Source: Thermodesulfobacteriota bacterium (GTDB lineage Bacteria > Desulfobacterota_D > UBA1144 > Nemesobacterales > Nemesobacteraceae). Taken from it: DNA of 64,000 nucleotides. The stretch lies in assembly GCA_965204035.1 (NCBI GenBank), contig OZ241964.1, positions 1,905,251-1,969,250 of the forward strand, given 5' to 3'. Shown one piece after another: positions 2,153 to 46,950 of this stretch. Every line of letters starts with the position of its first letter. The stretch's first letter is position 1. The translations under genes and the position numbers were made by a program. The notes beneath the pieces were generated by a model, which saw nothing but the letters and a program-made list of their open reading frames with translations, was not told where the DNA came from and ran no database searches.

Positions 2153-2234
2153 GGACGCCCCGACCTCCTGCGGACCCCCGAGCTCGGCCAGCGTCAGAAC
2201 CCGGACTTCAGCCAGGTCTTTGGCCCCTGCCTGC

Positions 2235-3974: not shown

Positions 3975-3990
3975 TAAGGAGGTATGAGAT

Positions 3991-6027: not shown

Positions 6028-6030
6028 GAA

Positions 6031-6786: not shown

Positions 6787-6840
6787 TTTTGACAGAAGCA
6801 GTTGAATTAACGCTATAAACTTTTAAGGAGGTATTTTCAG

Positions 6841-7614
6841 ATGACAGAAGCAGAAAAGCTTAAGAAGATTGCGATTTATGTCGGCGGCACGCTGACCCCT
6901 GAGCTCGCTGATGCGGCGACTCTCGTCCGCACGCTCGGCCTGCCCGGCGGAAAGCCCGAGGCATTCCGGCTCGCGGCCTGGAATGGGCATAATTTCGAGG
7001 TGGTGTCGGCGACCTCCCGCAGCGGATCGAGTTTTGTTCTCGACCATCGCGGTGGTGCGCACGAAATAGCCATGGTCATCTACTACCCGCTCGATCCGCG
7101 CATCACCGAGGCTGACGTGGCGGGGGCCGTAAGAGCGTATCCGAATGCCGATGGCTCGGGGTGGCTCTTCGCGCATACGGACGAGGGGACGCACCATGAC
7201 TACGAGCTCGTGCTGCTCGCGGCCTGCGACGGAGTTTTTCAGCCGCTTTTCCGGCAATACCAAGTAGACATGCTCAAGCCCGCTACGCGCACGCCCGCGG
7301 AAGAACGATTCAAGCTCCTGTCCGAGTTCTATGGCCAGGCCGTCATCAAGCTCCGCGATCTGGCACGCAGCAGGTTCCTCGGCGAGCGCGAGCAGCAGGC
7401 GCATCCGAAAGAAGGCTGGCTGGACCGCGACATCACGTCAGCGGTAGCGGCTGCGAAGGCTAAATGGAAGGAGAGCAGGCCAACTGATTTCGCTACGATC
7501 TCGTCGGCAGTCAGGTATTTGGAGCAGGCGCTTGCCATGCCCGCGGTTGAAACCCGCTGGGACCGGGATGCGAGGATCGCGGCCGAGCAGAAAGCCAAGG
7601 ACGAAGATGAGTAG
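6841..7614 (+). CDS. hypothetical protein (257 aa)
   Basis: Strong RBS aaggaggtattttcagATG. No recognisable family. Confidence 0.45.
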   Translation: MTEAEKLKKIAIYVGGTLTPELADAATLVRTLGLPGGKPEAFRLAAWNGHNFEVVSATSRSGSSFVLDHRGGAHEIAMVIYYPLDPRITEADVAGAVRAYPNADGSGWLFAHTDEGTHHDYELVLLAACDGVFQPLFRQYQVDMLKPATRTPAEERFKLLSEFYGQAVIKLRDLARSRFLGEREQQAHPKEGWLDRDITSAVAAAKAKWKESRPTDFATISSAVRYLEQALAMPAVETRWDRDARIAAEQKAKDEDE

Positions 7615-7647
7615 TTTGAAGTGGTTTTCAAGGGGCCTTTAGGAGCT

Positions 7648-7695
7648 CGTAAAAGGGTTTTTAAAGGCCTTTTTCCCGCCCCTTGATTTAAGTAG
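7648..7695 (+). terminator. putative rho-independent terminator at the GC-rich/lower-GC boundary
   Basis: Arms ggccttta / taaaggcc are exact reverse complements and are followed by ttttt. The loop is long (~24 nt), so weak. Confidence 0.3.
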
Positions 7696-8128
7696 GCCGC
7701 TTAATTTTTAGTGGGGTCCGAGCAAATAAGCGTGCTAGAGTTGATGCAGCTTTATCTTCACAAAGATGCAGTTTCATGTTGCGCGTTATAGCAAGGAAAC
7801 AAAGCAGCAGAAAAGCAACAACTACATAATACACACGATTGCCCCCAAGAACCCTTAAAAAGCCCAAGGAAGCCACAAAGGGAAGAAGAACCACAGCCAC
7901 CCTTGCGGTAATATATTCTGAAATAATCTTTTTCATGATTTCCATCTTTCTGAGCAACAGATAATACCTGAATTGTGGACAGAACTGCCACCCCATCTGG
8001 ATAGGAAAGTATATGAGCCCCTTTAGGATAAGGTTTTTGAGGAAATGTGATTTTTCGATATGATTCCCCATAGAATCTAGGGGAAAGCAGCGCCCAGAAA
8101 TAAAAAGCGGTGAAGAAAAACGATGCAA
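7688..8128 (-). CDS. hypothetical small membrane protein (AT-rich ORF)
   Basis: ORF only. TM-like segments AVVLLPFVASLGFL and YYVVVAFLLLCFLAI. Could be spurious in AT-rich DNA. Confidence 0.2.
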   Translation of the reverse strand: MHRFSSPLFISGRCFPLDSMGNHIEKSHFLKNLILKGLIYFPIQMGWQFCPQFRYYLLLRKMEIMKKIISEYITARVAVVLLPFVASLGFLRVLGGNRVYYVVVAFLLLCFLAITRNMKLHLCEDKAASTLARLFARTPLKIKRPT

Positions 8129-8600
8129 TAATAAGCGACTGCGGGAATTACAGGTACGCGCTTCGAAGAGAGATCAAAGGGGGCGGAAATAGAGCCCTGT
8201 GCTTCATCTGCCTCAATCCGTCAAGGCAGACGGGGACAGGAACGACTCGACCGTCCTCAGTTGCATGCGTTTCGCCCGCAGTCTCGGGTACGGAGATCTT
8301 TACATGGTCAACCTGTTCGCCTGGAGGGATACGGACAGGACGGTTCTGCCTGACGACCCCGAGATCAGGGTCGGTCCGCACTGCGATTATTACATAGACA
8401 AATACACGTCGTCTTGCGACATGACGATTGCCGCATGGGGCAATTTCGTTTCCAGGCGGAAACTTTTCCGGCGGGCGAAGGAAATCACCGACCGTTACGA
8501 AAACCTGAAGGCGCTTAGAATTACCAAGAAAGGACACCCTCACCACCCGTTGTTTCTGCCCTGCGATCTTGAACCGGTCGATTTTGCGGGATACGGATAA
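8110..8600 (+). pseudogene. DUF1643-family gene split by a -1 frameshift near 8225
   Basis: Frame A (8110-8397) gives CGNYRYALRREI...LCFICLNPS; frame B (8199-8600) continues ADGDRNDSTVLSCMRFARSLGYGDLYMVNLFAWRDTD...AWGN...KKGHPHHPLF. Together these reconstruct the DUF1643 pattern CGxYRY..LNPSxAD..D.T...C..FA...GYG...V.NLFA.R. The frames switch within ccgtcaAGgcagac. Confidence 0.55.
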
Positions 8601-8852
8601 GCGATACGCGCATATTTCGATTAATGAGGTAGAGAGAGGTGATTTGAGGTGATTTCTGGCTCCCGTGGTGAAAGCACTTGTGGCTCTTCATTGCTTGTGG
8701 AACTGGGGAACATAAGCCGTTTTGATTCTCCAAGGCGGTTGATGTCTTCCGTGGGTCTTGTGCCTTCTGAGTACAGCAGCGGAGCGAGAAGACGCTAAGG
8801 AGGAATCACCCAGACGGGAAACTCCCACACCCGCAGGATGCTCGCGGGCTGC

Positions 8853-9620
8853 TCAGGGTTCAAAATTCCGGATTTTCATATAAGTAGATTCCAGTTGCTC
8901 TTTGTTGCCTAAGCACCAGCCACGCCCCTTATGAGTAAGGGAACAATGGGGTTCTTCATATTCGAGAGTAGGAGTAATTTTTATCATATCCCAGAATTCC
9001 AGCCTCCCAAAAGCATCATCCCTGTCCTGTTGGCTATACTCCAACATTTTCATTATTTTTATCAGACTTGATACGCCTCCGTCGGAATTATTCATATCCG
9101 GGTTGCAATAAAGAAACGTAAGAATAGTCAGTTCGGCTCCTTCAAATTCATCCTCATCGCAACTGGTACCGGTTGCGACAGGTTTTTTTTCTTTCTTTGC
9201 AGGTTTTTCCCCGCTGACGGCCTTGCGGAGCCTTTTTTCAATTTCCTCCTGCAGTTCCTCCCAGTCGCCCTGAGAAGTAGTGCCGTAAGAATAAGCCTCC
9301 CTCTGGTTCACGTCAAAAGGCAGTTTGTCCCGCTTGTCCTTCTCGCATATCAGCACTACCGGGACGTCATGACCGTGCGCGAAGCCCAGCTCGTACCAGA
9401 CGTTCGGATTGTCTTCGCTTATTTCAGCCAGGCAGACGGCGGATTTTTCAATTTCCTCCATGATCACCTGAATCTTTAATCTCGTCGCGTCATAATCCTC
9501 ATCCACGCGATAAGGAACCAGACCCGCTTTCTCTATAGCCGGTTTGTAGGTCTCTTCGCACCGTTTTTTATATTTATTCGTAAGTGGCTGAATGATGAAG
9601 CATTTTCTTTTCTCAGACAT
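8853..9620 (-). CDS. nucleoside 2-deoxyribosyltransferase-like / SLOG-fold domain protein with unknown C-terminal domain
   Basis: N-terminus KCFIIQPL...AVCLAEISEDNPNVWYELGFAHGHDVPVVLI resembles the NDT-like Rossmann signature (hydrophobic strand ... D/E..wElGyA.g..KPVi). Start taken at MSEKRK. Confidence 0.45.
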   Translation of the reverse strand: MSEKRKCFIIQPLTNKYKKRCEETYKPAIEKAGLVPYRVDEDYDATRLKIQVIMEEIEKSAVCLAEISEDNPNVWYELGFAHGHDVPVVLICEKDKRDKLPFDVNQREAYSYGTTSQGDWEELQEEIEKRLRKAVSGEKPAKKEKKPVATGTSCDEDEFEGAELTILTFLYCNPDMNNSDGGVSSLIKIMKMLEYSQQDRDDAFGRLEFWDMIKITPTLEYEEPHCSLTHKGRGWCLGNKEQLESTYMKIRNFEP

Positions 9621-9718
9621 TCTTCTAACCCCCAAATTGATTTTTTATCGGTTTAACTTCCTGATATATTCCCCTGTCTCTTCCAGACTGATTCTGATTT
9701 CTGGAAGGATATTCCCGT

Positions 9719-12700
9719 CTATACTTTCAGAGTCTCAATCTCGTCGTCAATCCTTCTCAACATTTTTCCGGCCCAGCGTCGGACTGTTCCTTTTTCATGA
9801 TTTTCGATGCTCCGCAAAGGTTCCATATAGCGGGCGAGATGTTCCGCCTCCGAACCCCATCCGGAAAAAGTACGCATGTTTGCCGCCAAAACGTCCAATA
9901 CTTCCTCGCGTTTCCCGAACTCATCAAGAAGACGCTTAATCACCGGATGAAATTCTTCGGATGCGGTTTCCCGGTCACGCTCTTTGAGCAATGGGAAAGT
10001 CTCCGCAACAAATGCCGGCCCGGTTTCGGGACTTGAGTAACACCACCCGAAAAGCATGTTCTGCGGAAGACTCAGAATTGGCTTTGTACCGTCTCCGGAA
10101 GACAGTTCTCCTCTTAACATCTTTGAGAGTCGCCATGAGCGCATTTCGCTTTCCGATGAGAGATCATCCTCTTCCGTCAGGACTCCGCTTATCAGCGGCC
10201 ACACAATTTCCGCAAAATTTGACAAGAGGCCAGGCAGAACGTGTGCGATCATCTTCTGGTCATTATACGTAAGGTCTTCGGTAGCGAGCTGCTTGGCGAT
10301 AGTGATTGCCACTTTCCGGGCATCGGTATCGGTGCTTCCTTTTGATATTATCCAGTTCATCAGAGTCTCGTAGCAGTGTTCATGGGACGACTTGTCATAG
10401 ACTTCTTCCGTATTGATCATGGGATATCTGGCCACGAGCAACAACTGGGGTCGGAAGTATTCTAAACATTCCTCTCGTTTGTACGCATATGAGTATATGA
10501 AATCCAGCGCGAGGCCGAAACTTGAAGAATTCTCTTTTTTGAGCAGCAAATCAAACAGAGGAATCACTTCGTCCGGTCGCAGTTTGGACAGCACACTGGG
10601 GTTCCATGCGAACATTTCACGGTGCGATATAAATCCCGCTTCCAAAGCTTCAATTAACAGTTCCACATCATCGGGGCTGATGCCGACATATAAAGGTAAT
10701 CTCGGAAAAACAGAAGCGAAAACGGAAGATCTTACCGACTCCCGTTTGAACCTCTCAACCTCTTTGGGTTCCCGTTCTTTCAGCCCCGTCATATAGCCGA
10801 CCAGAAAGTCGCCGTCTCGCTCTTCTTCCGAGGCAGACTCGAACGCTTCCGTTATTTTCTTTTTCCAGTAAAGGGGGGCCTCGGCCTGTTCCGCCATAAA
10901 GTACCCGAAAAGTCGGGCGTTTCGGTGTCGGCCGACGCACAATTCAGGTATGAGTTTCGTAAGCTCAGTCTCACGGACAAGCAGTTCTCCAGCGAGTTCT
11001 CTGAGCTTTTTGCACTGAAGTTCAAACATCTTATCGTGATCAATGTTTTTTCTCTTGAGATAATTAAAGGGCATCTCCGTGATCAGGAACCGGATTCGGT
11101 CATCCAAATCCTCCGGTTCCAAGGTGCGGATAAGGGCTTCCACTCTTCGCTCAACGAGGGGATCAATATTGTCTAGGCTGTATTCCAGAAATTTTTCAAG
11201 AGAATCAAGCGCTTCAGGCCAACATGGATGTTTTTCTTTTATCTCACGCGTCCATCTCTCGACATCTTCTATCAATCCGTCCGATACATACTTGCGCCAT
11301 TTCAGACCCAGCTCAACTCTCGCTCTTTTACCTATGTCGTCTGACCGTCTTGCAAGTTTCACCAAGTGACTGACGCACCCCTTAACATAATCCCAGAACT
11401 CCGATTCAGTCTCTGGCAACCATGGTTCAAGGGAGGGGCGGCTTCCGTGGATTTCCGGTCCCGTATAACGACGGAAACGATCACCTGTTTTCGCACCTTC
11501 AAGCAAGGCGTCGACTAGAACAGGCAGGTAGGAATCTGAGTGGTCCCAGTAATCATCCACAAGTTCTCCAATGAGATCAAGGCGTTTCCCTGAACCTGCG
11601 GCTGTGTTTGCTAAATACACGGGGAAAAGAGATTTAAACCGATCCCTGGCATTATTTATGATGTTTTCGCTTTCACCGCACGCAAGTTCCAGTAAAAGCA
11701 CCGCGGCATCTTCAAATGTATTTTCCGCAAATGCAATCTTTGAGAGCGTAGCAGTCAGGTCGCGGCGCGCGGTTCCGGTTATCTCCCTAATTTGAACTCG
11801 TTTCAGCGGACCCAGAATATCTTTTAGTACATCGACTGTGCCCCGAGGGTCTATTTCCGCAAGCCAGACCAGTATTCTCAAATTGCTTTTCCATACTCCC
11901 GGCGAACGCGAAAACATCCTATTTCCTAACATATGGCGAACTACCCTAGTCGCTATGGACTCCATGTTGAGAGAGGCAAGCTGTTTGGCCACCCTCTCCC
12001 GTAACCGTTCGGAAAGAGTTCCTACCAGAACTTCTTCCCGCTGTTTATTGCCCCATTCCTCCCACTGCCACCGAGCAAGAATGAGCGCTGCGCACTCCGG
12101 TTTTAGAATTGCGAGGCCTCCCTGCTGACGGACAACCCCGCGTCTTTTCAATTTCCGTACAGCTCCACGAAAATCTTCAACAGAAATGGTGTTTGAAAAT
12201 TCCGCGATCTCCTCGAGTTCTGTCTTTTCATCGTAAACCGCTTCTGTTGCCACGCCGCCGAACGCGCTTACAATCATCGCGGCTTCGTAGACATATTCCT
12301 GAGAATCCCCGCCAAGTAATTTTCGGACAAGGAAATCTTCATTCTCCGAAGCGGTCAATCCTTTCTCCATCCATGACCCGGCGATTATCCGGGCGCAAGT
12401 AATATCGCCTTCCGAAAAGACAATTATGCGTCGGCGGTCCGTCTCGATTATGCCGGGATCAAGAGATTTAATTATGTTTTCGACAAGAGAATTTTCAGCG
12501 GCGCCCACAACGAGCGTGTTTTCCGATTCTTCCGCGTTAGGGGGAATCTCCCAGCTGATGGTCACCAGAGAGAGACTGCTGACTGAATGCTTAACAATGC
12601 TGACAAGGTCTATGCGGGTCTCCTCCGAGCAACGGTCAACAACCAGCACAACCCGTTTCCCGGAGTTCGCAAGATTCGTCGCGTATTCCTTTATTTTCTG

Positions 12701-13735
12701 GGAACCGGCTTCCGACTCAACCGCGTAAAGCACTAGGTCGCTTAACTTCGCTCCCGAAATTCTCTCAGTTTTGGTCGGGCCGAAAGCCTCCAGAGCGAGG
12801 CGCGATTTTCCGGCACCTGACAGTCCGACGACCCGAGCGACACCTTTCGGAGTTTCGACAATGGCACGCAGTCTTTCCCGGAAACCCGGCAGCCGCGGGT
12901 CGTCAATCCAGGGCGAGTCGCAGTGTTCCGGCCTGCCGGACCAATGCTTCCAGTCCTCGAAAAAAGAGTCTATAAGTCCCGGTCTCGTCTTCCGTAGAAG
13001 CCAGATGGCTACAGAAGGATGATAGTTCACCCATGAAGCTATCTGGCCCGAATCGCGAAACTGGACAGAAGGGTCTTTGAAACCGTGGTTTCCCAAGTTT
13101 TTTCTTATTTCGTCTAAACGCCTATCAATCAGGTTTTGGGTGTAAGGACTGGAACAGAGCATTATGTATGAAGCGCCTCTTTCAAGCGCTTCTCGAACCA
13201 TGGGCCTTAGCTTGTTCTCCGCGGTAAGAACTTCATCTCCAGCTTTTTTGGGAGAAACATACCCCGTCTTTAACTGAAACTGGCAGAACCGTCTCGGGAG
13301 GAAATGCGTGCGCGGCGGGCCGTCCCGCCATTCTATGCGCGCGTCCTCGCCGCCGTCGGGGGCAGCCGTTTCGAAAGCGACGTGAATTCCATCTAACGGA
13401 AGATTACACTGCAGGGCTTCGGCAACTAGCAGCTTTTCGACCAAGGTGCTGAATTCAGAAGGCTTTAATCTTGAAACATCCTCATCCGTAACATCAAACG
13501 GGGTTGTCGCCGGTTTTTTCTCCTCGACTTCCTGCCCGGTTATCTCCGGCAGCCTTTCCGGTTTTTTCTCCAATAATCTCAGTATCCTTACCAAAGCTGC
13601 GGAAGGTTTTACCGAACCTTTTTCGTATTTCGCAAAAGCACTGGAACCGCCACCTAGCAACTCTCCGGCTTCGGCTTGCGACAAACCCAACGATTGCCTT
13701 ATTTCTTTTATTTTCTGGGGATTCATTCTTTTCAA
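9719..13735 (-). CDS. Avs/AVAST-like STAND NTPase: N-terminal XRE-type HTH + Mrr-like PD-(D/E)xK nuclease + P-loop NTPase + long helical-repeat C-terminus
   Basis: HTH: IKEIRQSLGLSQAEAGELLGGGSSAFAKYEKG. Mrr_cat-like: PSEFSTLVEKLL...DGGEDARIEW...CQFQLKTGYVS. Walker A VVGLSGAGKSRLALEAF; Walker B RVVLVVDRCSEE. About 800 aa of helical repeats follow. The listed start is a TTG; an in-frame ATG lies 9 nt downstream. Confidence 0.55.
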   Translation of the reverse strand: MKRMNPQKIKEIRQSLGLSQAEAGELLGGGSSAFAKYEKGSVKPSAALVRILRLLEKKPERLPEITGQEVEEKKPATTPFDVTDEDVSRLKPSEFSTLVEKLLVAEALQCNLPLDGIHVAFETAAPDGGEDARIEWRDGPPRTHFLPRRFCQFQLKTGYVSPKKAGDEVLTAENKLRPMVREALERGASYIMLCSSPYTQNLIDRRLDEIRKNLGNHGFKDPSVQFRDSGQIASWVNYHPSVAIWLLRKTRPGLIDSFFEDWKHWSGRPEHCDSPWIDDPRLPGFRERLRAIVETPKGVARVVGLSGAGKSRLALEAFGPTKTERISGAKLSDLVLYAVESEAGSQKIKEYATNLANSGKRVVLVVDRCSEETRIDLVSIVKHSVSSLSLVTISWEIPPNAEESENTLVVGAAENSLVENIIKSLDPGIIETDRRRIIVFSEGDITCARIIAGSWMEKGLTASENEDFLVRKLLGGDSQEYVYEAAMIVSAFGGVATEAVYDEKTELEEIAEFSNTISVEDFRGAVRKLKRRGVVRQQGGLAILKPECAALILARWQWEEWGNKQREEVLVGTLSERLRERVAKQLASLNMESIATRVVRHMLGNRMFSRSPGVWKSNLRILVWLAEIDPRGTVDVLKDILGPLKRVQIREITGTARRDLTATLSKIAFAENTFEDAAVLLLELACGESENIINNARDRFKSLFPVYLANTAAGSGKRLDLIGELVDDYWDHSDSYLPVLVDALLEGAKTGDRFRRYTGPEIHGSRPSLEPWLPETESEFWDYVKGCVSHLVKLARRSDDIGKRARVELGLKWRKYVSDGLIEDVERWTREIKEKHPCWPEALDSLEKFLEYSLDNIDPLVERRVEALIRTLEPEDLDDRIRFLITEMPFNYLKRKNIDHDKMFELQCKKLRELAGELLVRETELTKLIPELCVGRHRNARLFGYFMAEQAEAPLYWKKKITEAFESASEEERDGDFLVGYMTGLKEREPKEVERFKRESVRSSVFASVFPRLPLYVGISPDDVELLIEALEAGFISHREMFAWNPSVLSKLRPDEVIPLFDLLLKKENSSSFGLALDFIYSYAYKREECLEYFRPQLLLVARYPMINTEEVYDKSSHEHCYETLMNWIISKGSTDTDARKVAITIAKQLATEDLTYNDQKMIAHVLPGLLSNFAEIVWPLISGVLTEEDDLSSESEMRSWRLSKMLRGELSSGDGTKPILSLPQNMLFGWCYSSPETGPAFVAETFPLLKERDRETASEEFHPVIKRLLDEFGKREEVLDVLAANMRTFSGWGSEAEHLARYMEPLRSIENHEKGTVRRWAGKMLRRIDDEIETLKV

Positions 13736-13856
13736 CCCTCTGCTTTGACATATAATATCACATTGGTATAATATATCAATATGGTAAATATTTTCTCAGA
13801 AAAAATTGTTGCCACGCTGATTTAAAAACACAGGAATATCATGGAGGAATCGTGTT

Positions 13857-14060
13857 ATGCCAAGCGAGACAGACCAGATTGGGATTATCCTGAGGATAGA
13901 CAGCGATAGGTTCTACTGCGAAAAAAAACCCAGTCAATTTACGGAGGATCAATCCGAGGCCGACATACTTACGGATGCAGAAGCGGAAAGAATTCGGAGA
14001 ATCCTTGTTCACAGGGGCTTAAGAAGGGTCACCAAAATATCGGTGTTGCCGGGATATTGA
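13857..14060 (+). CDS. small hypothetical protein (67 aa)
   Basis: Good RBS ggaggaatcgtgttATG. No family recognised. Confidence 0.3.
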   Translation: MPSETDQIGIILRIDSDRFYCEKKPSQFTEDQSEADILTDAEAERIRRILVHRGLRRVTKISVLPGY

Positions 14061-14127
14061 CCTGAAATTCTGAGCATGTACGCAGTAAATCTAGCTGGAC
14101 AATCCTAATTCTTGGGACAACACCAAC

Positions 14128-14982
14128 ATGAACGCACAACTCAAAGAAAAGTTTATCAAGCGGATTGATCAGCTTTTAGAAAAAGCCGAGGAGGTAAAAG
14201 CTACTGAGGAGCCACCACCGACTAGTAGTGGCGGAATTGCCTTTATCGGATTCCCGGCAACATTAGACAGTATGGCCTTTTTCGAATGGAAGAGCAGTGC
14301 AGAAAATTTAATTGCCCAAATCGTTAGCAAAGACAGTTCCGACTACAAAAATTTCCTAGACGAAGTAAAAGATGAGCACAGAAGTCACGTCGACCGCGGT
14401 ATCGGGATTTTAAATTCTTTAAAAGATAGATTGCAATCGGGATTTCTTGATTTAACTTCAATTGAAGGTTCCCAAACACTCGGGGTTGATAATAGCAAGA
14501 CAATAAAGACATCTCGAGAGGTGAAAACGAAGAAAAACAAGGTTTTCGTGGTTCACGGACACAATGAAGAAATCCTGTTGAAAACCAAAGACTTTCTTGA
14601 AAAACTCCAGCTGGAACCAATAATTCTTAGAGAGTTGCCCGATGAGGGTCGGACGATTATCGAAAAGTTTATGGAATATTCCGCTCAGGCTGGATTTGCC
14701 GTTGTTCTATTAACCCCGGACGACAAAGGTGGAAGCAGATCAGATTCGTATAAAAATCAAAGGTTCAGGGCTCGGCAGAACGTAATCCTTGAACTCGGTT
14801 TTTTTCTTGGTTCTCTTGGAAGAAAACTTGTATGCGTCCTTTATCAAAGAGATGTCGAAATCCCCTCAGATTATAAAGGCGTGCTGTTTGTGGAAGTTGG
14901 CGACACCGATGGGTGGCGAATAAAGCTGGCCCGAGAGATAAAAAAAGCAGGTCTTGAAGTTGATCTAAATCTGCTTGCTTGA
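14128..14982 (+). CDS. protein with C-terminal TIR-like (SLOG/'predicted nucleotide-binding protein containing TIR-like domain') domain
   Basis: KVFVVHGHNEE...GRTIIEKF...AGFAVVLLTPDDKG...NVILELGFF matches the FVvHGhd...g.tI..k.e....a.fAvvLlTpDD signature of bacterial TIR-like/SLOG domains. The N-terminal ~140 aa are unknown. Confidence 0.5.
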   Translation: MNAQLKEKFIKRIDQLLEKAEEVKATEEPPPTSSGGIAFIGFPATLDSMAFFEWKSSAENLIAQIVSKDSSDYKNFLDEVKDEHRSHVDRGIGILNSLKDRLQSGFLDLTSIEGSQTLGVDNSKTIKTSREVKTKKNKVFVVHGHNEEILLKTKDFLEKLQLEPIILRELPDEGRTIIEKFMEYSAQAGFAVVLLTPDDKGGSRSDSYKNQRFRARQNVILELGFFLGSLGRKLVCVLYQRDVEIPSDYKGVLFVEVGDTDGWRIKLAREIKKAGLEVDLNLLA

Positions 14983-15037
14983 TAGTGGTCGTGGTTTCAA
15001 GCTTGCCTTTCTTTGAGGTTTTGTCAGCAAAAAACCG

Positions 15038-15748
15038 ATGCCTGAAAAAAAACTCTTTCTAATACCATGCTGCGCTTCCAAAAAACATGACGGCCATTCC
15101 CGCTCCGCCGCGCCCGACCCTCTAAGCCGTTTAGTTTCGGAGGCGACTTACTCCGCCATTCTGGAAACCAGGAGGGAGGTGCTCTCGGGCATTCGCCAAG
15201 ACAGGAGATACCTGTCCGGAAAATACGAAAAAAACAGGAGACTTGAACCAGGACCGGACTTCGGCGGACAGAGCGCATCCGGACTTTACCTCCCAGCCGT
15301 ACAAAGATATAAAGGCACGCTTTACTCAAACGCCCCCGCCCTTTCATCAGGGAGCGACCGGGGCGGCCGGATTCTCATCCTGTCGGCACTCTACGGACCG
15401 CTTCACCCCCTGAGCCGCATTCAGGACTACAACCTGCAGATGAGCGATAAGCCCGCCTACGGAACATGGAAGAAGCGCCTTCCGGGTTTTCTTCGGAACT
15501 ACGCTCTTTCTAACGGGATTCGGGAGGTTCACCTCTTTTTCGGAAGCAGCACGTACTATCTGAAAGCGGCGCAAGCCGCCGTGGAACCCCTGTTAAAAGA
15601 GAAACTGATTAAAAAAGCGATCCAGTATCACGTCGTTGGCGGAAGCACGAGGCTGACATCCCAGACACACGGCGAACTGCTCGAAGACTTTCTGAATCGG
15701 GGAAGCACAGACGAACTTCCCGGGAACGTCGAGGAGCGCGCTTTATGA
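15038..15748 (+). CDS. YaaA/DUF328 (UPF0246)-like protein
   Basis: LFLIPCCASKK (cf. YaaA LILISPAKT), GLYLPAVQRYKGTLY and RILILSALYGPLHPLSRIQDYNLQM (cf. YaaA RILSGLYGLLRPLD.I.PYRLEM). Overlaps the next gene by 4 bp. Confidence 0.45.
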   Translation: MPEKKLFLIPCCASKKHDGHSRSAAPDPLSRLVSEATYSAILETRREVLSGIRQDRRYLSGKYEKNRRLEPGPDFGGQSASGLYLPAVQRYKGTLYSNAPALSSGSDRGGRILILSALYGPLHPLSRIQDYNLQMSDKPAYGTWKKRLPGFLRNYALSNGIREVHLFFGSSTYYLKAAQAAVEPLLKEKLIKKAIQYHVVGGSTRLTSQTHGELLEDFLNRGSTDELPGNVEERAL

Positions 15749-16518
15749 GTGAGGAGTGCCGGTTCATACATGATCTCGCGGGGAAGCTCGACAGGCATAA
15801 ATTTCCTTTCGAACCCCAACGAATTCCCGAAAGCGGAATATATCTGCTCTTTGAGGCGGGGGAAACCGCCCTTGGAACCGACCGAATCGTTCACGTCGGA
15901 ACGCACTCGGGAAAGCGGGGGCTCAGGTCAAGGCTCCGGGAGCACGACACTCCCAACAAGGACCGGAGCATACTGAGGAAGAACATCGGCCGGGCCCTTT
16001 TGCGCGAAAGCGGGAATCCCTTTCTTGAGAAATGGAACCTTGACCTCACCTCAAGGGAGGCGAGACGGAAACACGGCCCGTCCGTCGACTTCGAACGACA
16101 GAGGGCAATTGAGGAGGCCGTGACGGACCGGATCCGGAGAACCTTTTCCTTCGTCGCGTTCCCCGTGGAAGACAAGGATGCCCGGTTCAGACTCAAGTCG
16201 GGGATTATATCCACCTTGTCACGATGCGACTGCTGTCGACCGTCGGAGCAATGGCTGGGCGGATATTCTCCAAGAAGCAAAATTCGAGAAAGCGGCCTCT
16301 GGCTCACGCAGGGGTTGGGCAAGGAACCGCTGTCAGGAGATGAAATCAGCTACTTGCGGGCAATGGTGCCGCGAACGGATGGAACATTCCAGAGCACCGG
16401 AATCCTTTCGAAAAGCTCGATGACCGGAAAACAAATTCCTCCCCGGAGAGTCGGACTCAACCGAATCGCCTCTCCACCTGTCCGGAATTATTCGGGCCAA
16501 TCAGAAAAGCGGACCTGA
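15745..16518 (+). CDS. GIY-YIG nuclease-domain protein
   Basis: GIYLLFEAGETALGTDRIVHVGTHSGKRGLRSRLREH gives the GIY-(x10-11)-YVG ... R...H motif. C-terminal ~150 aa unknown. ATGA overlap with the upstream gene. Confidence 0.55.
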   Translation: MSEECRFIHDLAGKLDRHKFPFEPQRIPESGIYLLFEAGETALGTDRIVHVGTHSGKRGLRSRLREHDTPNKDRSILRKNIGRALLRESGNPFLEKWNLDLTSREARRKHGPSVDFERQRAIEEAVTDRIRRTFSFVAFPVEDKDARFRLKSGIISTLSRCDCCRPSEQWLGGYSPRSKIRESGLWLTQGLGKEPLSGDEISYLRAMVPRTDGTFQSTGILSKSSMTGKQIPPRRVGLNRIASPPVRNYSGQSEKRT

Positions 16519-16641
16519 CCGGACGCGTCCTTGTTTCTACTGAAACGCCCATCTTTTTTTTTCTTTCTCCTAGGTTTATTGGGAATAACGATGAAAAACC
16601 CTGGTTTCCGGTCCGGGAGAAAATCCCTCTCCACTATCAAA

Positions 16642-16692
16642 AGGGCAAAAAAAAAGCGGGCAACCTTTGTTAGGGAGCCCGCTTCGTTCAAG
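16642..16692 (-). terminator. rho-independent terminator for the minus-strand outer-membrane gene
   Basis: On the minus strand, stem agcgggc/gcccgct with a ~15-nt loop is followed by T9 (plus strand: aaaaaaaaagcgggcaacctttgttagggagcccgcttcg). Confidence 0.6.
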
Positions 16693-16719
16693 CTTTGTGA
16701 GCTTTGTTTTGTTTTGTTC

Positions 16720-18270
16720 TTATTTCATGAACTGATCGATGTAAACCATCAGCCTTGTCTGAAACGCCCAGATCGTATCATCGGCGCTGCTAGTGTCCCC
16801 GTTGGCAGCTCCATGAGCCTCAATCAGGTCAGTAAGACCGTCACCGGCGATTACCAAGCTTCCGATCAAGTCAAGGTTTACGCCCGGATGAAGCGTCCAG
16901 GTAAGCGTTCCCTCAACCTCGGTTCCGAGGTACTCGGCAACCTCTGCGGCACCAATACCCGACCCGAAGTTAGCTCCGTAAAAACTACTATCAAAAGCTG
17001 AAACCGCATGTGTCTCGTCGTTCCAGGCAATCAGAACCTGAGGAGTGAACCCTATGTTCTCGGCAATAGTCACGTTCGCGTAAGCCTTGGCGTAGATAGC
17101 GTTTATAACGCTTCCTTCTATATTATAAACAGTCGGAATGACATGCTTGAAGAGAAGGTTATCTACGTTATATGCAGGGCTGAACGGAAGGGCGTTACCT
17201 TCGATCGTGAGAGGCGTAGAAGCATCGTCACCTTGCGCCCAACCGGCTTCAATACCTATCGCGCTTACCTGAGCCATCATTGAAGGATAGACCTCAAGAC
17301 GGGCCGCCATGTCGAAAGCGTAGTCAAATTCAACATCAGTACCCGTAAAATCGACACCTCCAAGCGGCGTAGTATCACCGGCAGCTAACTCTCCCCCTCC
17401 GAACATCTGAACTTCGTAGGTGAAGCTCCAGTTAGCAGCTTTAAGTACTAGAAGACCTGCGTACAAGGAAGTGCGGTCAACATCCCAATTGTATCCCAAG
17501 CCGGGACTGAATATGTTTTGCTGATGCAGGTACGGGAATCCGTACGCTCCCACGGTCACGTTGACATCTCCCATCTGCTGGTTGTAGATACCCGCCGCGG
17601 CAAGTATGTCATAGCCTGTGCCTTCGGAACTGGCGAACAGGCTGGTACCCTGAGTGAATACGTCAGACACGAGAACCAAGGTGAAGGTTCCGGCGCCCGC
17701 TGGGAACGACTTTAACCAAAGCAACCTGTCAACCACGAAACCGAGGTCTGAATGCGGATCGTGTCCGCCGTTTGCGAGAATCCCGAGACCCCAGTCAAAA
17801 GGCTGGCGTCCTATCCTCACGAAACCAAGGTTGTTCGGAAGAACTATGTCCGCGTGAAGCATGCGAACGCTAAAATATCCGATATCGTCAAAAACACTGC
17901 TTGAACCGCCGGCTTTAGCGCCATGTAAAATAGCGCCCCTGAAGCGATCGTTTGGTCTGAGATCGGACAGAACCACGCTGTCACCACCTCCACCAAAGAA
18001 ACCGCTGGTAACGCCACCCCATACCATGTTGTTCGCAACATCGATCTGAGCCCTAACGGTAACCGCGTCGCTTAGGCCCATCTGCGGGGTGACCCTGAGC
18101 GTCGTATCAGTAACATTAATCCTCTCACCGCTAAAAGTGGCATTGTCAATGACACGAGTTCTCGTTCTCAAGTAACTCGGAAATCCGCCAAGCGACCAGT
18201 CTATCGCGAATGACGGGATCGACATGCCAAGAACGGCGAAAAATATTATAAGCCATCTGGCTTGAATCAT
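16720..18270 (-). CDS. outer-membrane beta-barrel protein (porin-like), signal peptide present
   Basis: N-terminal signal MIQARWLIIFFAVLGMSIPSFA. Alternating hydrophobic beta-strand pattern throughout and Gly/aromatic-rich. Family not identified. Confidence 0.4.
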   Translation of the reverse strand: MIQARWLIIFFAVLGMSIPSFAIDWSLGGFPSYLRTRTRVIDNATFSGERINVTDTTLRVTPQMGLSDAVTVRAQIDVANNMVWGGVTSGFFGGGGDSVVLSDLRPNDRFRGAILHGAKAGGSSSVFDDIGYFSVRMLHADIVLPNNLGFVRIGRQPFDWGLGILANGGHDPHSDLGFVVDRLLWLKSFPAGAGTFTLVLVSDVFTQGTSLFASSEGTGYDILAAAGIYNQQMGDVNVTVGAYGFPYLHQQNIFSPGLGYNWDVDRTSLYAGLLVLKAANWSFTYEVQMFGGGELAAGDTTPLGGVDFTGTDVEFDYAFDMAARLEVYPSMMAQVSAIGIEAGWAQGDDASTPLTIEGNALPFSPAYNVDNLLFKHVIPTVYNIEGSVINAIYAKAYANVTIAENIGFTPQVLIAWNDETHAVSAFDSSFYGANFGSGIGAAEVAEYLGTEVEGTLTWTLHPGVNLDLIGSLVIAGDGLTDLIEAHGAANGDTSSADDTIWAFQTRLMVYIDQFMK

Positions 18271-18609
18271 CTCTCCTTACCTCCTGTAAATTTATATTCC
18301 AAAATTAACAACCGCGCCCCAGTTTCCTAAACCGGACGCAGAATATAATCAAACTCTTTATAAGCTTACTACAAGAGCAAGCCTGATTTCAAGCGTTTTT
18401 TCCCTTAACGGAAAATTACACCATCTCTTAATACGCCTTTAACAATAAACTATGAAGGCGGCTGTGTCAAGAGTTTTTGACCGGAACCAGCCTCAACGGA
18501 CTTAAAAACAGTACCGATCTGTCAGCCCAGGCGATACCAAAACAGCCTCATTAATCCCGGCCGGCGCGTAAACGCGAGAAGTCCCGGCCAAGCCCCGCTT
18601 TCGCAATAA

Positions 18610-19278
18610 TCACCCCCTCCCGAAGAACCGAAGGGTGATAAACGGAATGAGGCTGAGCGCGGGCGAGAGCGCAAGCTGCGTCGCGGCGCTTTTGCGCAAA
18701 GGCTCCTTCATAGCCATTATCCCCGAGTAAAGCCAAGCCGGATCCCCGATGAATCCCCTTGCCGCCTCGCAGAAGAAAAAAACATTCCGCGGACTCAGGA
18801 GAAAAACGAGCAGGTTAAATACAAGGAACACAAGAACTCCCTTCGCGACCAGGCTAAGCGCCCTTCCCCACACAAGGGAGTTAACGGCCTTCCTCGTGAG
18901 GTTTCCCCCGTAGTACCCGGCAAGCATCCCCCCGAGAATTGCCGTCATCATGAGGCTTATCCCGAAACCGAAAAGAAAGACCAGGCATTTCCCCAAAAGA
19001 TCGGCCGTCGCGCCGAAAGCCGGAATCACATCCTCCCACACTCCCCAGGCAAGCGGAAGAAGCAGACCAAGAAACGCCCCCTCCCAGAAACCGCTTCGAG
19101 CTCCCACCATGAAAAAAGTAAGCATTCCCCTCACCGTCAGGAAATCAGAAGGTATGTCCTGCCCCGTGCGCTCTATTATATGGTACTGCTGTATCTCCGA
19201 TATCGCGTCTATAAGGTTGCGCGGGGACGCGTGGGGCGAAGACGATATGGGAGTGAACCCTCCCCTCCCGCCGCTCAC
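18610..19278 (-). CDS. polytopic inner-membrane protein (about 5 TM helices), unknown family
   Basis: Clear TM helices (LTFFMVGARSGFWEGAFLGLLLPLAWGVW; LVFLFGFGISLMMTAILGGMLAGYY; VLVFLVFNLLVFLL). Confidence 0.35.
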   Translation of the reverse strand: MSGGRGGFTPISSSPHASPRNLIDAISEIQQYHIIERTGQDIPSDFLTVRGMLTFFMVGARSGFWEGAFLGLLLPLAWGVWEDVIPAFGATADLLGKCLVFLFGFGISLMMTAILGGMLAGYYGGNLTRKAVNSLVWGRALSLVAKGVLVFLVFNLLVFLLSPRNVFFFCEAARGFIGDPAWLYSGIMAMKEPLRKSAATQLALSPALSLIPFITLRFFGRG

Positions 19279-19391
19279 GGCCCTTCTCCTCTACACATGG
19301 ATATAAGGCGTGAGAAAGCCTGGGTTTTCAACGCCCGAAGGCCCGGCAAATTTCCCGACGCGAAAAATTTTTTGAAAAAAGTAATGGACAT

Positions 19392-30251: not shown

Positions 30252-30265
30252 TTCCGTGTCACTCT

Positions 30266-31915: not shown

Positions 31916-32322
31916 TCATATGTCTTATTATTACTTTTAAGTTTTTCCCGAATCCCCTTTCCCACAGCATTTCCCGACAAAGCTTCTCCTAATTGATTTC
32001 ACCGTTTAAAATCAAATTCGGGATAAAAGTTGCAGGATGCTAGGCATTTTCGCTCGGTTTTGAGCAGATTCAACAGTAAGTGCAAGATTATTCCGGCCAT
32101 AATCTTATTTTCCCTCGACTCTGGTGGAGAAAGCTTTTTAAGAACCTTTTTTCGTCAGTGAGTCGCTTAGCATCAACTTAACAAGTCTTTTTTGCCTATT
32201 TCCTAGGAATTTCGGGAAAACTAAACTTAATCTTTGTTATATATAATAGTACTACAGTCCGTGGTTTCAAGTAAAAAGGCAAGGTTCCGATGCCGCGAAA
32301 AAATAAAACGGCGACGGAATAA

Positions 32323-46835: not shown

Positions 46836-46856
46836 TACGACTTGGGAACATTGTTT

Positions 46857-46925: not shown

Positions 46926-46950
46926 ATAACAATACAGCGAGTTTAGGATC

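What the first reader, a model, noticed from the sequence alone, without database searches (positions are those of the whole stretch)
7690..19300. About 11.6-kb lower-GC island between the GC-rich 5' block and the GC-rich T4SS
Base composition drops sharply at about 7.65 kb and rises again at about 19.4 kb. The island is bounded on the left by a hairpin/T-run and ends in an AT-rich promoter-like stretch before the coupling-protein gene. Its content (DUF1643 pseudogene, SLOG/NDT-like, Avs-like STAND, TIR-like, GIY-YIG, OMP) suggests a horizontally acquired defense island inserted into the conjugative element backbone.
Basis: seen in the sequence. Interest (0 to 1): 0.5.

Follow-up and report, generated by a model that had tools for sequence, protein, structure and literature searches.

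The report
Mosaic phage-defence region beside conserved T4SS
The low-GC stretch is real, but it is not one inserted island: about 9 kb of it is a patchwork of separate anti-phage gene cassettes sitting in a variable hot spot next to a conserved conjugation-type secretion gene cluster of Dadabacteria, and the last 2.8 kb are conserved core genes that simply have lower GC.

Summary
GC is 0.50 over 7591-19470, against 0.60 and 0.61 on the flanks. The hairpin at 7630-7674 and the AT-rich stretch before traD are both present.

In 22 related Candidatus Dadabacteria/Thermodesulfobacteriota chromosomes, the putative OMP gene (16720-18270), the membrane-protein gene (18610-19278) and the AT-rich traD promoter region are syntenic core. 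Homology to all relatives starts at the OMP gene's terminator, about 16575-16650. OMP orthologues have low GC3 in every relative, so their low GC is a property of the gene.

The variable part therefore ends at about 16.65 kb. It is a mosaic of independently distributed cassettes:
- frameshifted DUF1643, an NDT-fold protein and an HTH-Avs8 (PD-lambda-4A-like) STAND nuclease;
- a TIR protein (PDC-S35);
- a DUF6884/YaaA-like protein plus PDC-M57B.

The GC-rich left block is not backbone. It is ORFan, absent from the relatives, and has the least host-like tetranucleotide usage in the window.

Relatives carry other defence genes at the same site, or a TolC-like gene directly after the terminator, which looks like the empty state. 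I found no integrase, att repeats or target duplication.

This is a defence hot spot of a known kind. The one mildly new feature is the recurrent HTH-Avs8 + NDT-like gene pair.

The parts
7630..7674 (+). Terminator-like hairpin after the last gene of the GC-rich ORFan block. It marks the compositional left edge.
   Evidence: The fold is -30.5 kcal/mol with z = -3.98. The sequence is shown, and the GC change point falls at 7590/7591.
7688..7942 (-). Small 84-aa hydrophobic ORF in a spacer (7615-8072) that has no match in any related locus. Whether it is a real gene is uncertain.
   Evidence: ORF list. There are only insignificant Pfam matches. No blastn match to any locus.
8110..8600 (+). DUF1643 gene disrupted by one frameshift near 8215-8225. 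It is either a pseudogene or an assembly error.
   Evidence: Pfam PF07799 positions 24-134 match 8199-8600 (E 3e-25), and positions 1-22 match frame 8110-8220. An intact 173-aa DUF1643 occupies the same place in L046. The window is 89.7% identical in nucleotides to L046 over 8073-9961.
8853..9620 (-). 255-aa protein with an N-terminal NDT/TIR-fold domain (putative N-glycosidase) and a C-terminal helical, winged-helix-like domain. It lies 98 nt downstream of the Avs8-like gene.
   Evidence: It has 1262 homologues, some annotated PF05014. The AF2 model has pLDDT 84. Foldseek matches nucleoside 2'-deoxyribosyltransferases, DNPH1, MilB/BcmB and TIR domains at E about 1e-4. Invariant residues include the NPNVWYELG motif. 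The same 97-98-nt spacing after Avs8-like genes is seen in L046, L047 and L048, and L041 keeps a 79-nt remnant.
9719..13726 (-). HTH-Avs8-like gene, 1335 aa. Domain order: MqsA-type HTH (1-66), PD-(D/E)xK nuclease (about 80-290), STAND P-loop NTPase (about 291-470), helical sensor (about 471-1338).
13736..14127 (.). AT-rich divergent intergenic region between the Avs8-like and TIR genes. It contains a perfect extended sigma-70 consensus at 13745-13772 on the + strand.
   Evidence: Promoter scan, 12 of 12 matches with a TG. GC is 0.42.
14128..14982 (+). 284-aa protein with an N-terminal helical domain and a C-terminal CAP12/Pycsar-type TIR domain. It corresponds to the single-gene defence candidate PDC-S35.
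   Evidence: Pfam PF10137 at E 4e-37. PADLOC PDC-S35 at E 3e-69, nearly full length. It matches Cap12 structures. GC3 is 0.40, the lowest in the tract.
15038..15748 (+). 236-aa DUF6884/YaaA-like protein, the first gene of a two-gene cassette. Its stop codon overlaps the next gene's start.
   Evidence: Pfam YaaA at E 3.7e-8 and DUF6884 at E 1.9e-4. Orthologues of 89-92% identity occur in L006, L008, L009, L016 and L021 (full length in L008 and L009, partial or split in the others), with nucleotide homology starting exactly at 15023-15025.
15745..16518 (+). PDC-M57B-family protein. The conserved domain spans 15745-16377, and the ORF here reads on for about 45 further codons. It is possibly GIY-YIG-like.
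   Evidence: PADLOC PDC-M57B at E 2.8e-78, covering model positions 1-209 of 211. Relatives end at 215 aa. The family has 1250 representatives. Of 42 sampled members, 20 match DUF6884 and 8 match YaaA; the sample deliberately included long proteins in which the M57B domain is internal. GIY_YIG_2 appears only in 2 members at E 5e-4.
16647..16682 (-). Intrinsic terminator of the OMP gene: stem 16656-16661/16677-16682 followed by U9. This is the point where conserved backbone begins in all relatives.
   Evidence: Alignment of 22 loci shows identity right of the A-run and divergence left of it. Sequence. The fold is -23.9 kcal/mol, z = -3.2. Group II introns sit directly after it in L011 and L017.
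16720..18270 (-). 516-aa putative outer-membrane protein. It is a conserved core neighbour of the T4SS cluster and not part of the acquired region.
   Evidence: Orthologues of 68-92% identity are syntenic in 20 relatives. Their GC3 is 0.49-0.57 against 0.68-0.82 for traD/traC in most of the 20 relatives compared. The TIGR04551 match is sub-threshold.
18610..19278 (-). 222-aa polytopic membrane protein, conserved next to traD. Core gene.
   Evidence: It is 44-93% identical and adjacent to traD in 23 Dadabacteria-type loci. It also occurs next to traD at 30-49% identity in Desulfobacterales-type elements, including the Desulfosarcina BuS5 plasmid.
19279..19391 (.). AT-rich divergent promoter region between the membrane-protein gene and traD. 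It is conserved backbone, not an island border.
   Evidence: Nucleotide homology to L002 (89.7%) and other relatives runs unbroken from 16638 to 20000. Promoter-like sites are listed.

Best explanation
The low-GC tract is a composite of two different things.

(A) 7.6-16.65 kb is the proximal part of a hypervariable cargo region. In Candidatus Dadabacteria chromosomes this region sits immediately downstream of the terminator of a conserved OMP gene, which flanks an F-type T4SS cluster (OMP, membrane protein, traD, HD protein, traK, traB, traC and onwards). In this genome that part holds three or four independently mobile anti-phage modules.

1. DUF1643 (frameshifted), an NDT-fold protein and an HTH-Avs8-like STAND protein. 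By homology to E. coli Avs8/PD-lambda-4A, the C-terminal helical sensor binds a conserved phage protein (the HK97-fold major capsid protein in the E. coli case). Binding triggers NTPase-dependent oligomerisation, which switches on the N-terminal PD-(D/E)xK nuclease and aborts the infection. The extra N-terminal MqsA-type HTH probably autoregulates the operon. The co-transcribed NDT-fold protein is probably an accessory N-glycosidase effector or modulator.
2. A TIR protein of the PDC-S35 type, presumably an NAD+-consuming abortive-infection effector with its own N-terminal sensor.
3. A DUF6884/YaaA-like protein plus a PDC-M57B protein. This is a two-gene candidate system whose components are matched within single proteins in other organisms. 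Its mechanism is unknown; it may be a DNA-binding sensor paired with a GIY-YIG-like nuclease.

(B) 16.65-19.39 kb is conserved core (OMP gene, membrane-protein gene, divergent traD promoter). Its lower GC is an intrinsic property shared by all orthologues.

Shown here: the composition, the borders, the synteny, the domain architectures, the motif conservation and the gene linkage. Inferred: all biochemical activities, the triggers and anti-phage function.
For: Composition:
- Segmentation and GC values.
- Per-gene GC3: 0.40-0.52 for the TIR, NDT and Avs8-like genes, 0.61-0.64 for the M57 pair, 0.68-0.82 for T4SS and chromosomal genes.

Borders and synteny:
- tblastn and blastn against 22 related chromosomes place OMP, the membrane protein and traD in every one.
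- Homology starts at about 16575-16650, or exactly at 15023-15025 in the loci that carry the M57 cassette.
- The junction alignment ends at the OMP terminator.
- Low GC3 of OMP is conserved across the relatives.

Variability of the site:
- 81 upstream ORFs from the relatives fall mostly into locus-specific clusters.
- They include DRT UG5-nitrilase, PDC-S11, PDC-S01, PDC-S15, a type II methyltransferase, ApeA and AAA_15/AAA_21 proteins.
- In L002, L004, L018 and L019 a TolC-like OEP gene lies directly after the terminator. L005 and L007 have one to several genes inserted between them.
- In two other Dadabacteria chromosomes, Avs8-like homologues lie 16-21 kb upstream of OMP on the same side, among Gabija-like, Fic, PIN, RT, SEFIR/TIR and KAP genes.

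Module identities:
- PADLOC hits.
- Invariant Avs8-like motifs.
- Nuclease fold and HTH.
- NDT fold.
- Avs8-like to NDT linkage with a constant 97-98-nt spacer in L046, L047 and L048, plus a remnant in L041.
- No terminator-like fold in the spacer.
- DUF6884/YaaA matches in 20 of 42 sampled M57B-family members.

Literature:
- PD-lambda-4 = Avs8. Avs8A is an Mrr nuclease plus P-loop protein, binds major capsid proteins and suffices for defence; Avs8B is dispensable (bioRxiv 10.1101/2025.07.02.662641; bioRxiv 10.64898/2026.01.04.697583).
Against: - The left limit of the cargo region is not defined. No relative carries the GC-rich block, and no TolC-like or purH gene lies in the window. The 7.6-kb edge is therefore supported only by composition and by a hairpin.
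- GC-normalised tetranucleotide usage of 7601-16640 is as host-like as true host chunks (r = 0.84 against 0.80-0.92). Foreign origin outside the lineage is thus not shown. The cassettes may circulate within Dadabacteria.
- The window protein is only 22-27% identical to HTH-less homologues on plasmids. The sensor target could differ from the capsid protein.
- The NDT gene also occurs without an Avs8-like neighbour (L011, L042-L045).
- The YaaA-like protein did not match PADLOC's PDC-M57A model.
- PDC-S35 and PDC-M57 are computational candidates. No experimental paper was found.
Confidence: 0.8

Rival explanations
1. A single ~11.6-kb horizontally acquired defence island (7690-19300), including the OMP and membrane-protein genes, was inserted as one unit into the backbone of a conjugative element, between a GC-rich backbone block and the coupling-protein gene.
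For: There is one contiguous low-GC segment by segmentation. It contains defence genes. A hairpin lies at the left edge and an AT-rich stretch at the right edge.
Against: - The OMP gene, the membrane-protein gene and the AT-rich stretch are conserved in 22 relatives.
- Low GC3 of OMP is seen in all orthologues.
- The left block is ORFan and absent from the relatives.
- The sub-modules have different distributions: M57 in 6-7 relatives, NDT in L011, and the Avs8-like/NDT/DUF1643 set in L046.
- No integrase and no border repeats were found.
Confidence: 0.05
2. The low-GC cassettes are not foreign. They belong to a lineage-internal flexible gene pool of Dadabacteria that is shuffled by recombination at a fixed chromosomal hot spot. 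Their low GC reflects selection or the mutational regime of these genes (for example AT-rich regulation or silencing of toxic immunity genes), not import from low-GC donors. The T4SS itself is an old, vertically inherited chromosomal cluster and not a recently arrived ICE.
For: - Tetranucleotide signature of 7601-16640 against the host-like pool is r = 0.84, within the host range. T4SS against the chromosomal right end gives r = 0.84-0.89.
- The closest homologues of the M57 pair, and homologues of the Avs8-like (63-64%) and NDT (75%) proteins (contigs identified), are in other Dadabacteria chromosomes, mostly on the same side of the OMP gene.
- OEP, OMP and T4SS synteny is shared by the most divergent relatives, L018 and L019.
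- Upstream regions are GC-poorer than the T4SS in all relatives.
Against: - GC3 of the TIR gene (0.40) and of the NDT and Avs8-like genes (about 0.51) is far below host genes at 0.68-0.82.
- Avs8-like and M57B families are spread across many phyla: Bradyrhizobium at 41% identity, plasmids of many genera, and 1250 M57B representatives. Inter-phylum transfer has therefore occurred at some point.
- This rival overlaps with the best explanation and differs mainly on the origin of the cassettes.
Confidence: 0.12
3. The composition steps are assembly artefacts. The window would be a chimeric MAG contig joining sequences from different organisms at 7.6 kb and/or 16.6-19.4 kb.
For: - The source is evidently a metagenome-assembled genome: all relatives are MAGs.
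- No independent assembly confirms the join of the left block to the island.
- The frameshift in DUF1643 could be a sequencing error.
Against: - The junction at the OMP terminator, and the M57 cassette joined to OMP, are reproduced in many independent assemblies, several of them closed chromosomes.
- The DUF1643/NDT/Avs8-like order is reproduced in L046.
- Proteins from the left block, NDT and Avs8-like genes are all recorded from one 2,009,148-bp contig.
Confidence: 0.03

Closest known systems
Defence-system hot spots in integrative conjugative elements and genomic islands (for example the variable hot spots of SXT/R391 ICEs that carry anti-phage systems; cited from my own knowledge, not tested here)
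   Same: There is a fixed site next to conserved conjugation genes. Different genomes carry different defence cassettes at that site, and some genomes show an empty state.
   Different: - The conserved cluster behaves like a long-resident chromosomal feature of a candidate phylum. Its signature matches the chromosome, and TolC-like and purH neighbours occur in some genomes.
- Only one conserved flank is defined here.
- No integrase or att site was seen in the tract.
- A truly intra-operon hot spot does exist, but it is at 30.26-35.3 kb.
Avs8 / PD-lambda-4 (AVAST-type STAND NTPase that senses the HK97-fold major capsid protein)
   Same: The protein matches the PD-Lambda-4_A model over its full length. 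It has a PD-(D/E)xK (Mrr-like) nuclease followed by a P-loop NTPase and a long helical C-terminal region. It sits in a two-gene layout with a small downstream gene (papers).
   Different: - It has an extra N-terminal MqsA-type HTH, present in most of the 120 listed homologues.
- It is only 22-27% identical to HTH-less plasmid homologues.
- The downstream gene is an NDT/TIR-fold protein and does not match the PD-Lambda-4_B model.
- The sensor region is strongly diverged even among close relatives, at 43-50% identity. The trigger is therefore unknown.
CAP12/Pycsar-type TIR effectors (Cap12 TIR-STING, PycTIR)
   Same: The TIR domain belongs to the same Pfam family (PF10137) and matches Cap12 structures in sequence.
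   Different: There is no STING or cyclic-nucleotide-binding domain and no cyclase gene nearby. The N-terminal ~130 residues are an uncharacterised helical domain. The best match is to the stand-alone candidate PDC-S35.
Nucleoside 2'-deoxyribosyltransferase / DNPH1 / MilB-BcmB N-glycosidases and TIR domains
   Same: The predicted fold of residues 1-137 matches these structures. An invariant acidic residue sits in the motif NPNVWYELG.
   Different: Sequence similarity is sub-threshold (PF05014 at E 0.049). The protein has an additional C-terminal helical domain. It occurs in defence-island and restriction-modification contexts.

Membership tests
Avs8 / PD-lambda-4 | Full-length similarity to the PD-Lambda-4_A profile | tested here: met
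   PADLOC PDLC03991 matches at E 3.9e-70, covering protein residues 80-1334 against model positions 4-1269 of 1283.
Avs8 / PD-lambda-4 | [quoted passage not shown] | tested here: met
   G304, G309 and K310 are invariant and S311 nearly so (Walker A). D367 is invariant after V365 and V366 (Walker B). This is from 55 aligned homologues.
Avs8 / PD-lambda-4 | N-terminal Mrr-like PD-(D/E)xK nuclease effector | tested here: met
Avs8 / PD-lambda-4 | C-terminal sensor that binds the HK97-fold major capsid protein | not testable with these tools
   Only profile coverage of the C-terminal region is available. That region is the most diverged part, at 43-50% identity.
Avs8 / PD-lambda-4 | Downstream partner gene Avs8B (PD-Lambda-4_B) | tested here: not met
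   The downstream 255-aa gene gives no PD-Lambda-4_B hit at E <= 0.01 and has an NDT/TIR fold. In E. coli the B gene is dispensable, so this feature is weak for membership.
PDC-S35 / CAP12-Pycsar TIR | TIR domain of family PF10137 and a full-length PDC-S35 profile match | tested here: met
   PF10137 at E 4.1e-37. PDLC05005 at E 3.1e-69, covering residues 26-283 against model positions 20-262 of 264.
CBASS / Pycsar effector | Adjacent cyclase gene and a nucleotide-sensing domain | tested here: not met
   The neighbours are the Avs8-like and YaaA-like genes, and no cyclase hit was found. NCBIfam Cap12 scores 45 bits against a cut-off of 450.
PDC-M57 (two-gene candidate system) | M57B component | tested here: met
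   PDLC04713 at E 2.8e-78, covering residues 1-208 against model positions 1-209 of 211.
PDC-M57 (two-gene candidate system) | M57A component adjacent | tested here: inconclusive
   The upstream 236-aa protein has no PADLOC hit at E <= 0.01. However, 20 of 42 sampled M57B-family members also match DUF6884 and 8 match YaaA (the sample included long proteins with an internal M57B domain). The gene pair is conserved with overlapping stop and start codons in at least 5 relatives.
GIY-YIG nuclease superfamily | Significant match to a GIY-YIG profile or structure | tested here: inconclusive
   The window protein has no Pfam hit even at E <= 10. Neither sequence nor profile search finds a PDB match. 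Two of 42 family members hit GIY_YIG_2 at E 4.6e-4. A GIY...RVG...R...H pattern is visible in the consensus, but this is a reading by eye.
NDT / DNPH1-like N-glycosidase fold (TIR-related) | Fold match plus a conserved catalytic-type acidic residue | tested here: met
   Foldseek gives E 4.5e-5 to 1e-3 against NDT, DNPH1 and MilB/BcmB, and equally against TIR domains. E77 is invariant. Several homologues carry PF05014.
SLOG superfamily | Fold or profile match to SLOG/LOG families | tested here: not met
   The 255-aa protein has no SLOG Pfam hit. No LOG/SLOG structure is named among the 50 listed fold matches.
Discrete genomic island inserted into an ICE backbone | Conserved backbone on both sides and absence of the island in related elements | tested here: not met
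   The right flank is conserved from about 16.6 kb, not from 19.4 kb. The left flank (2013-7614) is absent from all relatives and is ORFan.
Discrete genomic island inserted into an ICE backbone | Integrase or recombinase, and flanking direct repeats or a target duplication | tested here: not met
   No recombinase domain was found in 7.6-19.4 kb. Only chance-level 10-mers are shared between border zones.
Discrete genomic island inserted into an ICE backbone | Atypical composition | tested here: met
   GC is 0.496 against 0.60-0.61 on the flanks, and GC3 is 0.40-0.64 against 0.68-0.82. GC-normalised tetranucleotide usage, however, is host-like at r = 0.84.

The most novel reading that the evidence does not exclude
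Two linked claims that the evidence does not exclude.

(1) HTH-Avs8 plus the NDT-fold protein is a distinct two-gene Avs8 subtype. In it, a nucleotide N-glycosidase is a second, co-regulated effector or a checkpoint of a capsid-sensing STAND nuclease. The MqsA-type HTH would give toxin-antitoxin-like autoregulation of the operon.

(2) The terminator of the OMP gene next to a phylum-wide chromosomal F-type T4SS cluster acts as the anchor of the main defence island of Dadabacteria. Together with a second hot spot inside the T4SS cluster, this would tie immune-gene turnover to a conjugation-type machine in these small-genome bacteria (1.5-2.4-Mb chromosomes).
Probability: 0.3. Interest if true: 0.5.

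Novelty: new member of a known kind. Interest (0 to 1): 0.33.

Why it matters
Composition alone misplaced both borders of this island. A conserved core gene with intrinsically low GC was counted as foreign, and a GC-rich ORFan block that is compositionally the oddest part of the window was taken for backbone.

Biologically, the region documents a recurrent defence hot spot next to, and inside, a conserved T4SS cluster in an uncultured candidate phylum. It also provides a natural, intact example of an Avs8-type sensor with two add-ons: an HTH and an NDT-fold partner. These could be tested to learn how STAND immune receptors are regulated or paired with nucleotide-targeting effectors.

None of this overturns current understanding.

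Tried and rejected
- Exact-protein look-ups for window genes found nothing on record. The source contig could not be extended to the left.
- Megablast of 2-25 kb against plasmids gave no match.
- The 678-aa left-block protein gave no match in phages, plasmids or JGI metagenome contigs, and only a self-match in the 5.8-billion-protein search. No empty-site comparison was therefore possible for the left border.
- PHROGs and PADLOC gave nothing for the left block. A prophage-tail reading, based on a weak Phage-tail_3/PKD hit, was dropped.
- I searched for shared direct or inverted repeats at module borders and found only single 10-mers. There is no evidence of att sites or a target duplication.
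- tRNA and Rfam scans of the window were empty, so there is no tRNA integration site.
- GIY-YIG assignment of M57B failed with Pfam at E <= 10, with PDB phmmer and with a PDB profile search.
- PDB sequence searches for the OMP and YaaA-like proteins gave nothing significant.
- I first judged the NDT gene unlinked to the Avs8-like gene, on the basis of L011, L040 and L041. That was revised after L046-L048 and the remnant in L041.
- A literature search for PDC-S35 and PDC-M57 found no papers.

Full report
**1. Observation**

A 1-kb sliding GC profile drops from 0.59 to 0.49 at about 7.5 kb and returns to 0.60 by about 19.5 kb. An unsupervised likelihood segmentation of the whole 64-kb window puts change points at 7590/7591 and 19470/19471. 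Segment GC is 0.496, against 0.602 and 0.610 on either side.

The tract is one of four low-GC segments in the window. The others are 1-1840, 30141-35460 and 46611-52160. It is also heterogeneous inside: 0.42 around the TIR gene and 0.55 around 15-16.5 kb.

The left hairpin is real. A 19-bp stem lies right after the stop codon at 7614, at -30.5 kcal/mol and z = -4.0. The AT-rich promoter-like stretch before traD is also real, with GC 0.405 at 19300-19499 and sigma-70-like sites on both strands.

**2. Genes in the tract**

| Coordinates | Strand | Product | Evidence (calls) |
|---|---|---|---|
| 8110-8600 | + | DUF1643, split over two frames by one frameshift | 4, 53, 72 |
| 8853-9620 | - | 255-aa NDT/TIR-fold protein | 57, 58, 67, 70 |
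| 9719-13726 | - | 1335-aa HTH-Avs8-like STAND protein | 4, 5, 56, 82, 89 |
| 14128-14982 | + | 284-aa TIR protein (PDC-S35) | 4, 5 |
| 15038-15748 | + | 236-aa YaaA/DUF6884-like protein | 4 |
| 15745-16518 | + | PDC-M57B-family protein | 5 |
| 16720-18270 | - | 516-aa secreted protein, sub-threshold TIGR04551 match | 31 |
| 18610-19278 | - | 222-aa membrane protein | 3 |
| 19392-20840 | + | TraD/TraG-type coupling protein | 4 |

Details on individual genes:
- *NDT-fold protein.* The AF2 model (pLDDT 84) matches nucleoside 2'-deoxyribosyltransferases, DNPH1, MilB/BcmB N-glycosidases and TIR domains about equally. Some homologues carry PF05014.
- *TIR protein.* PF10137 at E 4e-37 and PDC-S35 at E 3e-69.
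- *PDC-M57B.* E 2.8e-78. Its start codon overlaps the stop codon of the YaaA/DUF6884-like gene.

Downstream of traD lies an F-type T4SS set: TraK, TraB, TraC, TraU, TraN, TraH and TraG.

**3. Comparison with relatives**

The TraD protein retrieved about 23 loci from Candidatus Dadabacteria/Thermodesulfobacteriota MAG chromosomes of 1.5-2.4 Mb, at 72-93% identity, plus more distant Desulfobacterales-type elements. The closest plasmid is that of Desulfosarcina sp. BuS5, at 56% identity with the same traD-HD gene order.

*The right-hand part is conserved core.* In every Dadabacteria-type locus, the membrane-protein gene lies directly upstream of traD in the same orientation as in the window. In 20 of them the OMP gene does too. 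Nucleotide homology to the window begins at 16575-16650 in most loci. A multiple alignment shows the shared sequence ending at the OMP gene's intrinsic terminator. That terminator has a stem at 16656-16661/16677-16682 followed by U9, and folds at -23.9 kcal/mol. To the left of it, the loci diverge completely.

The 2.8 kb from 16.65 to 19.39 kb, including the AT-rich traD upstream region, is therefore conserved core. Its lower GC is a conserved property of the genes. OMP orthologues have GC3 of 0.49-0.57 in most relatives, while their traD and traC have 0.68-0.82.

*The site left of the terminator is hypervariable.* Eighty-one ORFs of at least 180 aa from the relatives fall mostly into locus-specific clusters. 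They include DRT UG5-nitrilase reverse transcriptases, PDC-S11, PDC-S01 and PDC-S15, a type II methyltransferase, ApeA, AAA_15/AAA_21 ATPases and transposases.

In L002, L004, L018 and L019, which span the full divergence range, a TolC-like OEP gene follows the terminator directly. In L002 and L004, purH comes next. L005 has one gene inserted between OEP and OMP, and L007 has several. That arrangement looks like the ancestral empty site.

In two further chromosomes, Avs8-like homologues (63-64% identical) lie 16-21 kb from the OMP gene on the same side. They sit among Gabija-like, Fic, PIN, reverse transcriptase, SEFIR/TIR, HEPN and KAP genes (coordinates compared with L013 and L011). The site is a recurrent defence island.

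**4. The variable part of the window is itself a mosaic**

- *M57 cassette (15023-16646).* L008, L009, L016 and L021 match from exactly 15023 through to the core. L006 matches only 15025-15612 (a remnant), and L007 and L023 carry partial copies starting at 15416 and 16103.
- *NDT gene alone.* It is shared with L011 at 81% nucleotide identity over 8852-9644, with different neighbours there.
- *DUF1643, NDT and the 3' end of the Avs8-like gene (8073-9961).* This stretch is 89.7% identical to a 64-kb metagenome contig, L046. The 5' third of the Avs8-like gene (12558-13716) is 83.8% identical to the same contig. The sensor-encoding middle is too diverged for blastn. At protein level the HTH and nuclease domains are about 80% identical and the sensor 43%.
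- *Avs8-like/NDT pairing.* The NDT gene follows the Avs8-like gene with the same 97-98-nt spacer in L046, L047 and L048. L041 keeps a 79-nt remnant. The spacer shows no terminator-like fold. The NDT gene also occurs without an Avs8-like neighbour, in defence islands and inside a restriction-modification-like operon.
- *TIR gene, the 13736-14127 spacer and 7615-8072.* None of these has a counterpart in any fetched locus.

No recombinase and no border repeats were found.

**5. The left flank**

The GC-rich block at 2013-7614 comprises a PKD-domain protein and three proteins with no family hit. None of them appears in any relative's upstream 7-10 kb. They have no PHROGs or PADLOC hits. The 678-aa protein has no match in phages, plasmids or JGI metagenomes, and matches only itself among 5.8 billion proteins.

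GC-normalised tetranucleotide usage of this block correlates only 0.52 with the pooled T4SS and chromosomal sequence. Host-like 5.6-kb chunks give 0.80-0.92, and the defence tract 7601-16640 gives 0.84. No OEP or purH homologue lies in the window.

The 7.6-kb composition step is therefore a boundary between two different cargo modules, not between island and backbone. The true left end of the variable region lies outside the window, or has been lost.

**6. Mechanism**

According to two preprints, PD-lambda-4 has been renamed Avs8. Avs8A is an Mrr-nuclease plus P-loop STAND protein that binds HK97-fold major capsid proteins and is sufficient for defence. Avs8B is dispensable (bioRxiv 10.1101/2025.07.02.662641; bioRxiv 10.64898/2026.01.04.697583).

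The window protein has every sequence feature of Avs8A that can be tested here, plus an N-terminal MqsA-type HTH that most of its 120 listed homologues share. I infer the following sequence:
- the sensor recognises a conserved phage protein;
- the NTPase drives oligomerisation;
- the nuclease is activated and the infection aborts;
- the HTH mediates autoregulation;
- the NDT-fold partner acts as an accessory nucleotide N-glycosidase.

The TIR protein is inferred to be an NAD+-depleting effector. The DUF6884/YaaA + M57B pair is functionally linked, as shown by co-occurrence of the two domains in single proteins and by conserved gene adjacency, but its chemistry is unknown. None of these activities was or could be tested here.

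**7. Verdict**

The composition anomaly is real and the region does contain defence genes. The single-island-in-backbone model is wrong on both borders and on unity. The finding is an ordinary example of a known phenomenon: a defence hot spot adjacent to conserved conjugation genes. It occurs in a little-studied lineage, and its one modestly new feature is the recurrent HTH-Avs8 + NDT-fold gene pair.

Noticed in passing
window 30256-35300: The second low-GC tract (GC 0.46) is a clean ~5-kb insertion inside the T4SS gene cluster. L004, L005 and L023 pass from window position 30255 to 35282-35401 with only about 100-220 nt between. The tract carries a PD-Lambda-5_A / PDC-M38A-like ATPase (33315-34433) and two proteins with no family hit. 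This is the kind of island-in-backbone that the finding claimed for 7.7-19.3 kb.
   Followed up: partly
window 46611-52160: The third low-GC tract lies just after traG. It contains a PDC-S01 protein (AAA_14 + DUF4143; 46951-48189; PADLOC E 2e-137) and an IS1595-family transposase (50198-51205). PDC-S01-like genes also occur between OEP and OMP in L005 and L007.
   Followed up: partly
window 2013-7614: A GC-rich four-gene block: a PKD-domain protein plus three proteins with no family hit. The 678-aa protein matches only itself among 5.8 billion proteins. The block's tetranucleotide usage is the least host-like in the window (r = 0.52). Its function and origin are unknown.
   Followed up: partly
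L011 6944-7113, L017 6893-7178 (minus strand); probably also L003: Group II intron RNA domains (Rfam RF02001 and RF01998) sit immediately after the OMP terminator in related genomes. The position fits terminator-targeting group II introns, and the site is a general landing pad.
   Followed up: partly
window 9961-12558 compared with L046, L047 and L048: The sensor-encoding middle of the Avs8-like gene is too diverged for blastn, while its 5' third and its 3' end plus the NDT gene are 84-90% identical to L046. This points to domain-wise mosaicism or rapid sensor evolution.
   Followed up: partly
L040, L046, L048 (upstream of Avs8-like homologues): A 457-aa Fic-domain gene is divergently oriented upstream of the Avs8-like gene in three loci. 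In the window the TIR gene occupies that position.
   Followed up: no
window 13745-13772 (+): A perfect extended sigma-70 consensus (TTGACA, 16 nt, TG-n-TATAAT) lies in the AT-rich spacer upstream of the TIR gene. Promoter-like sites are about 2.6 times commoner in 7-20 kb than in shuffled sequence (23 found against 8.7 expected).
   Followed up: no
window 54-1007 and 61873-63339: Transposase genes of the DDE_Tnp_1_4 and DDE_Tnp_1/DUF772 types have 80% identical copies in the variable regions of L021 and L006. The same IS families move within this lineage.
   Followed up: no
window 15745-16518: The M57B ORF is about 45 codons longer here than in the relatives (215 aa). Nucleotide homology continues, so a changed stop codon or a frameshift at about 16378 is likely.
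   Followed up: no
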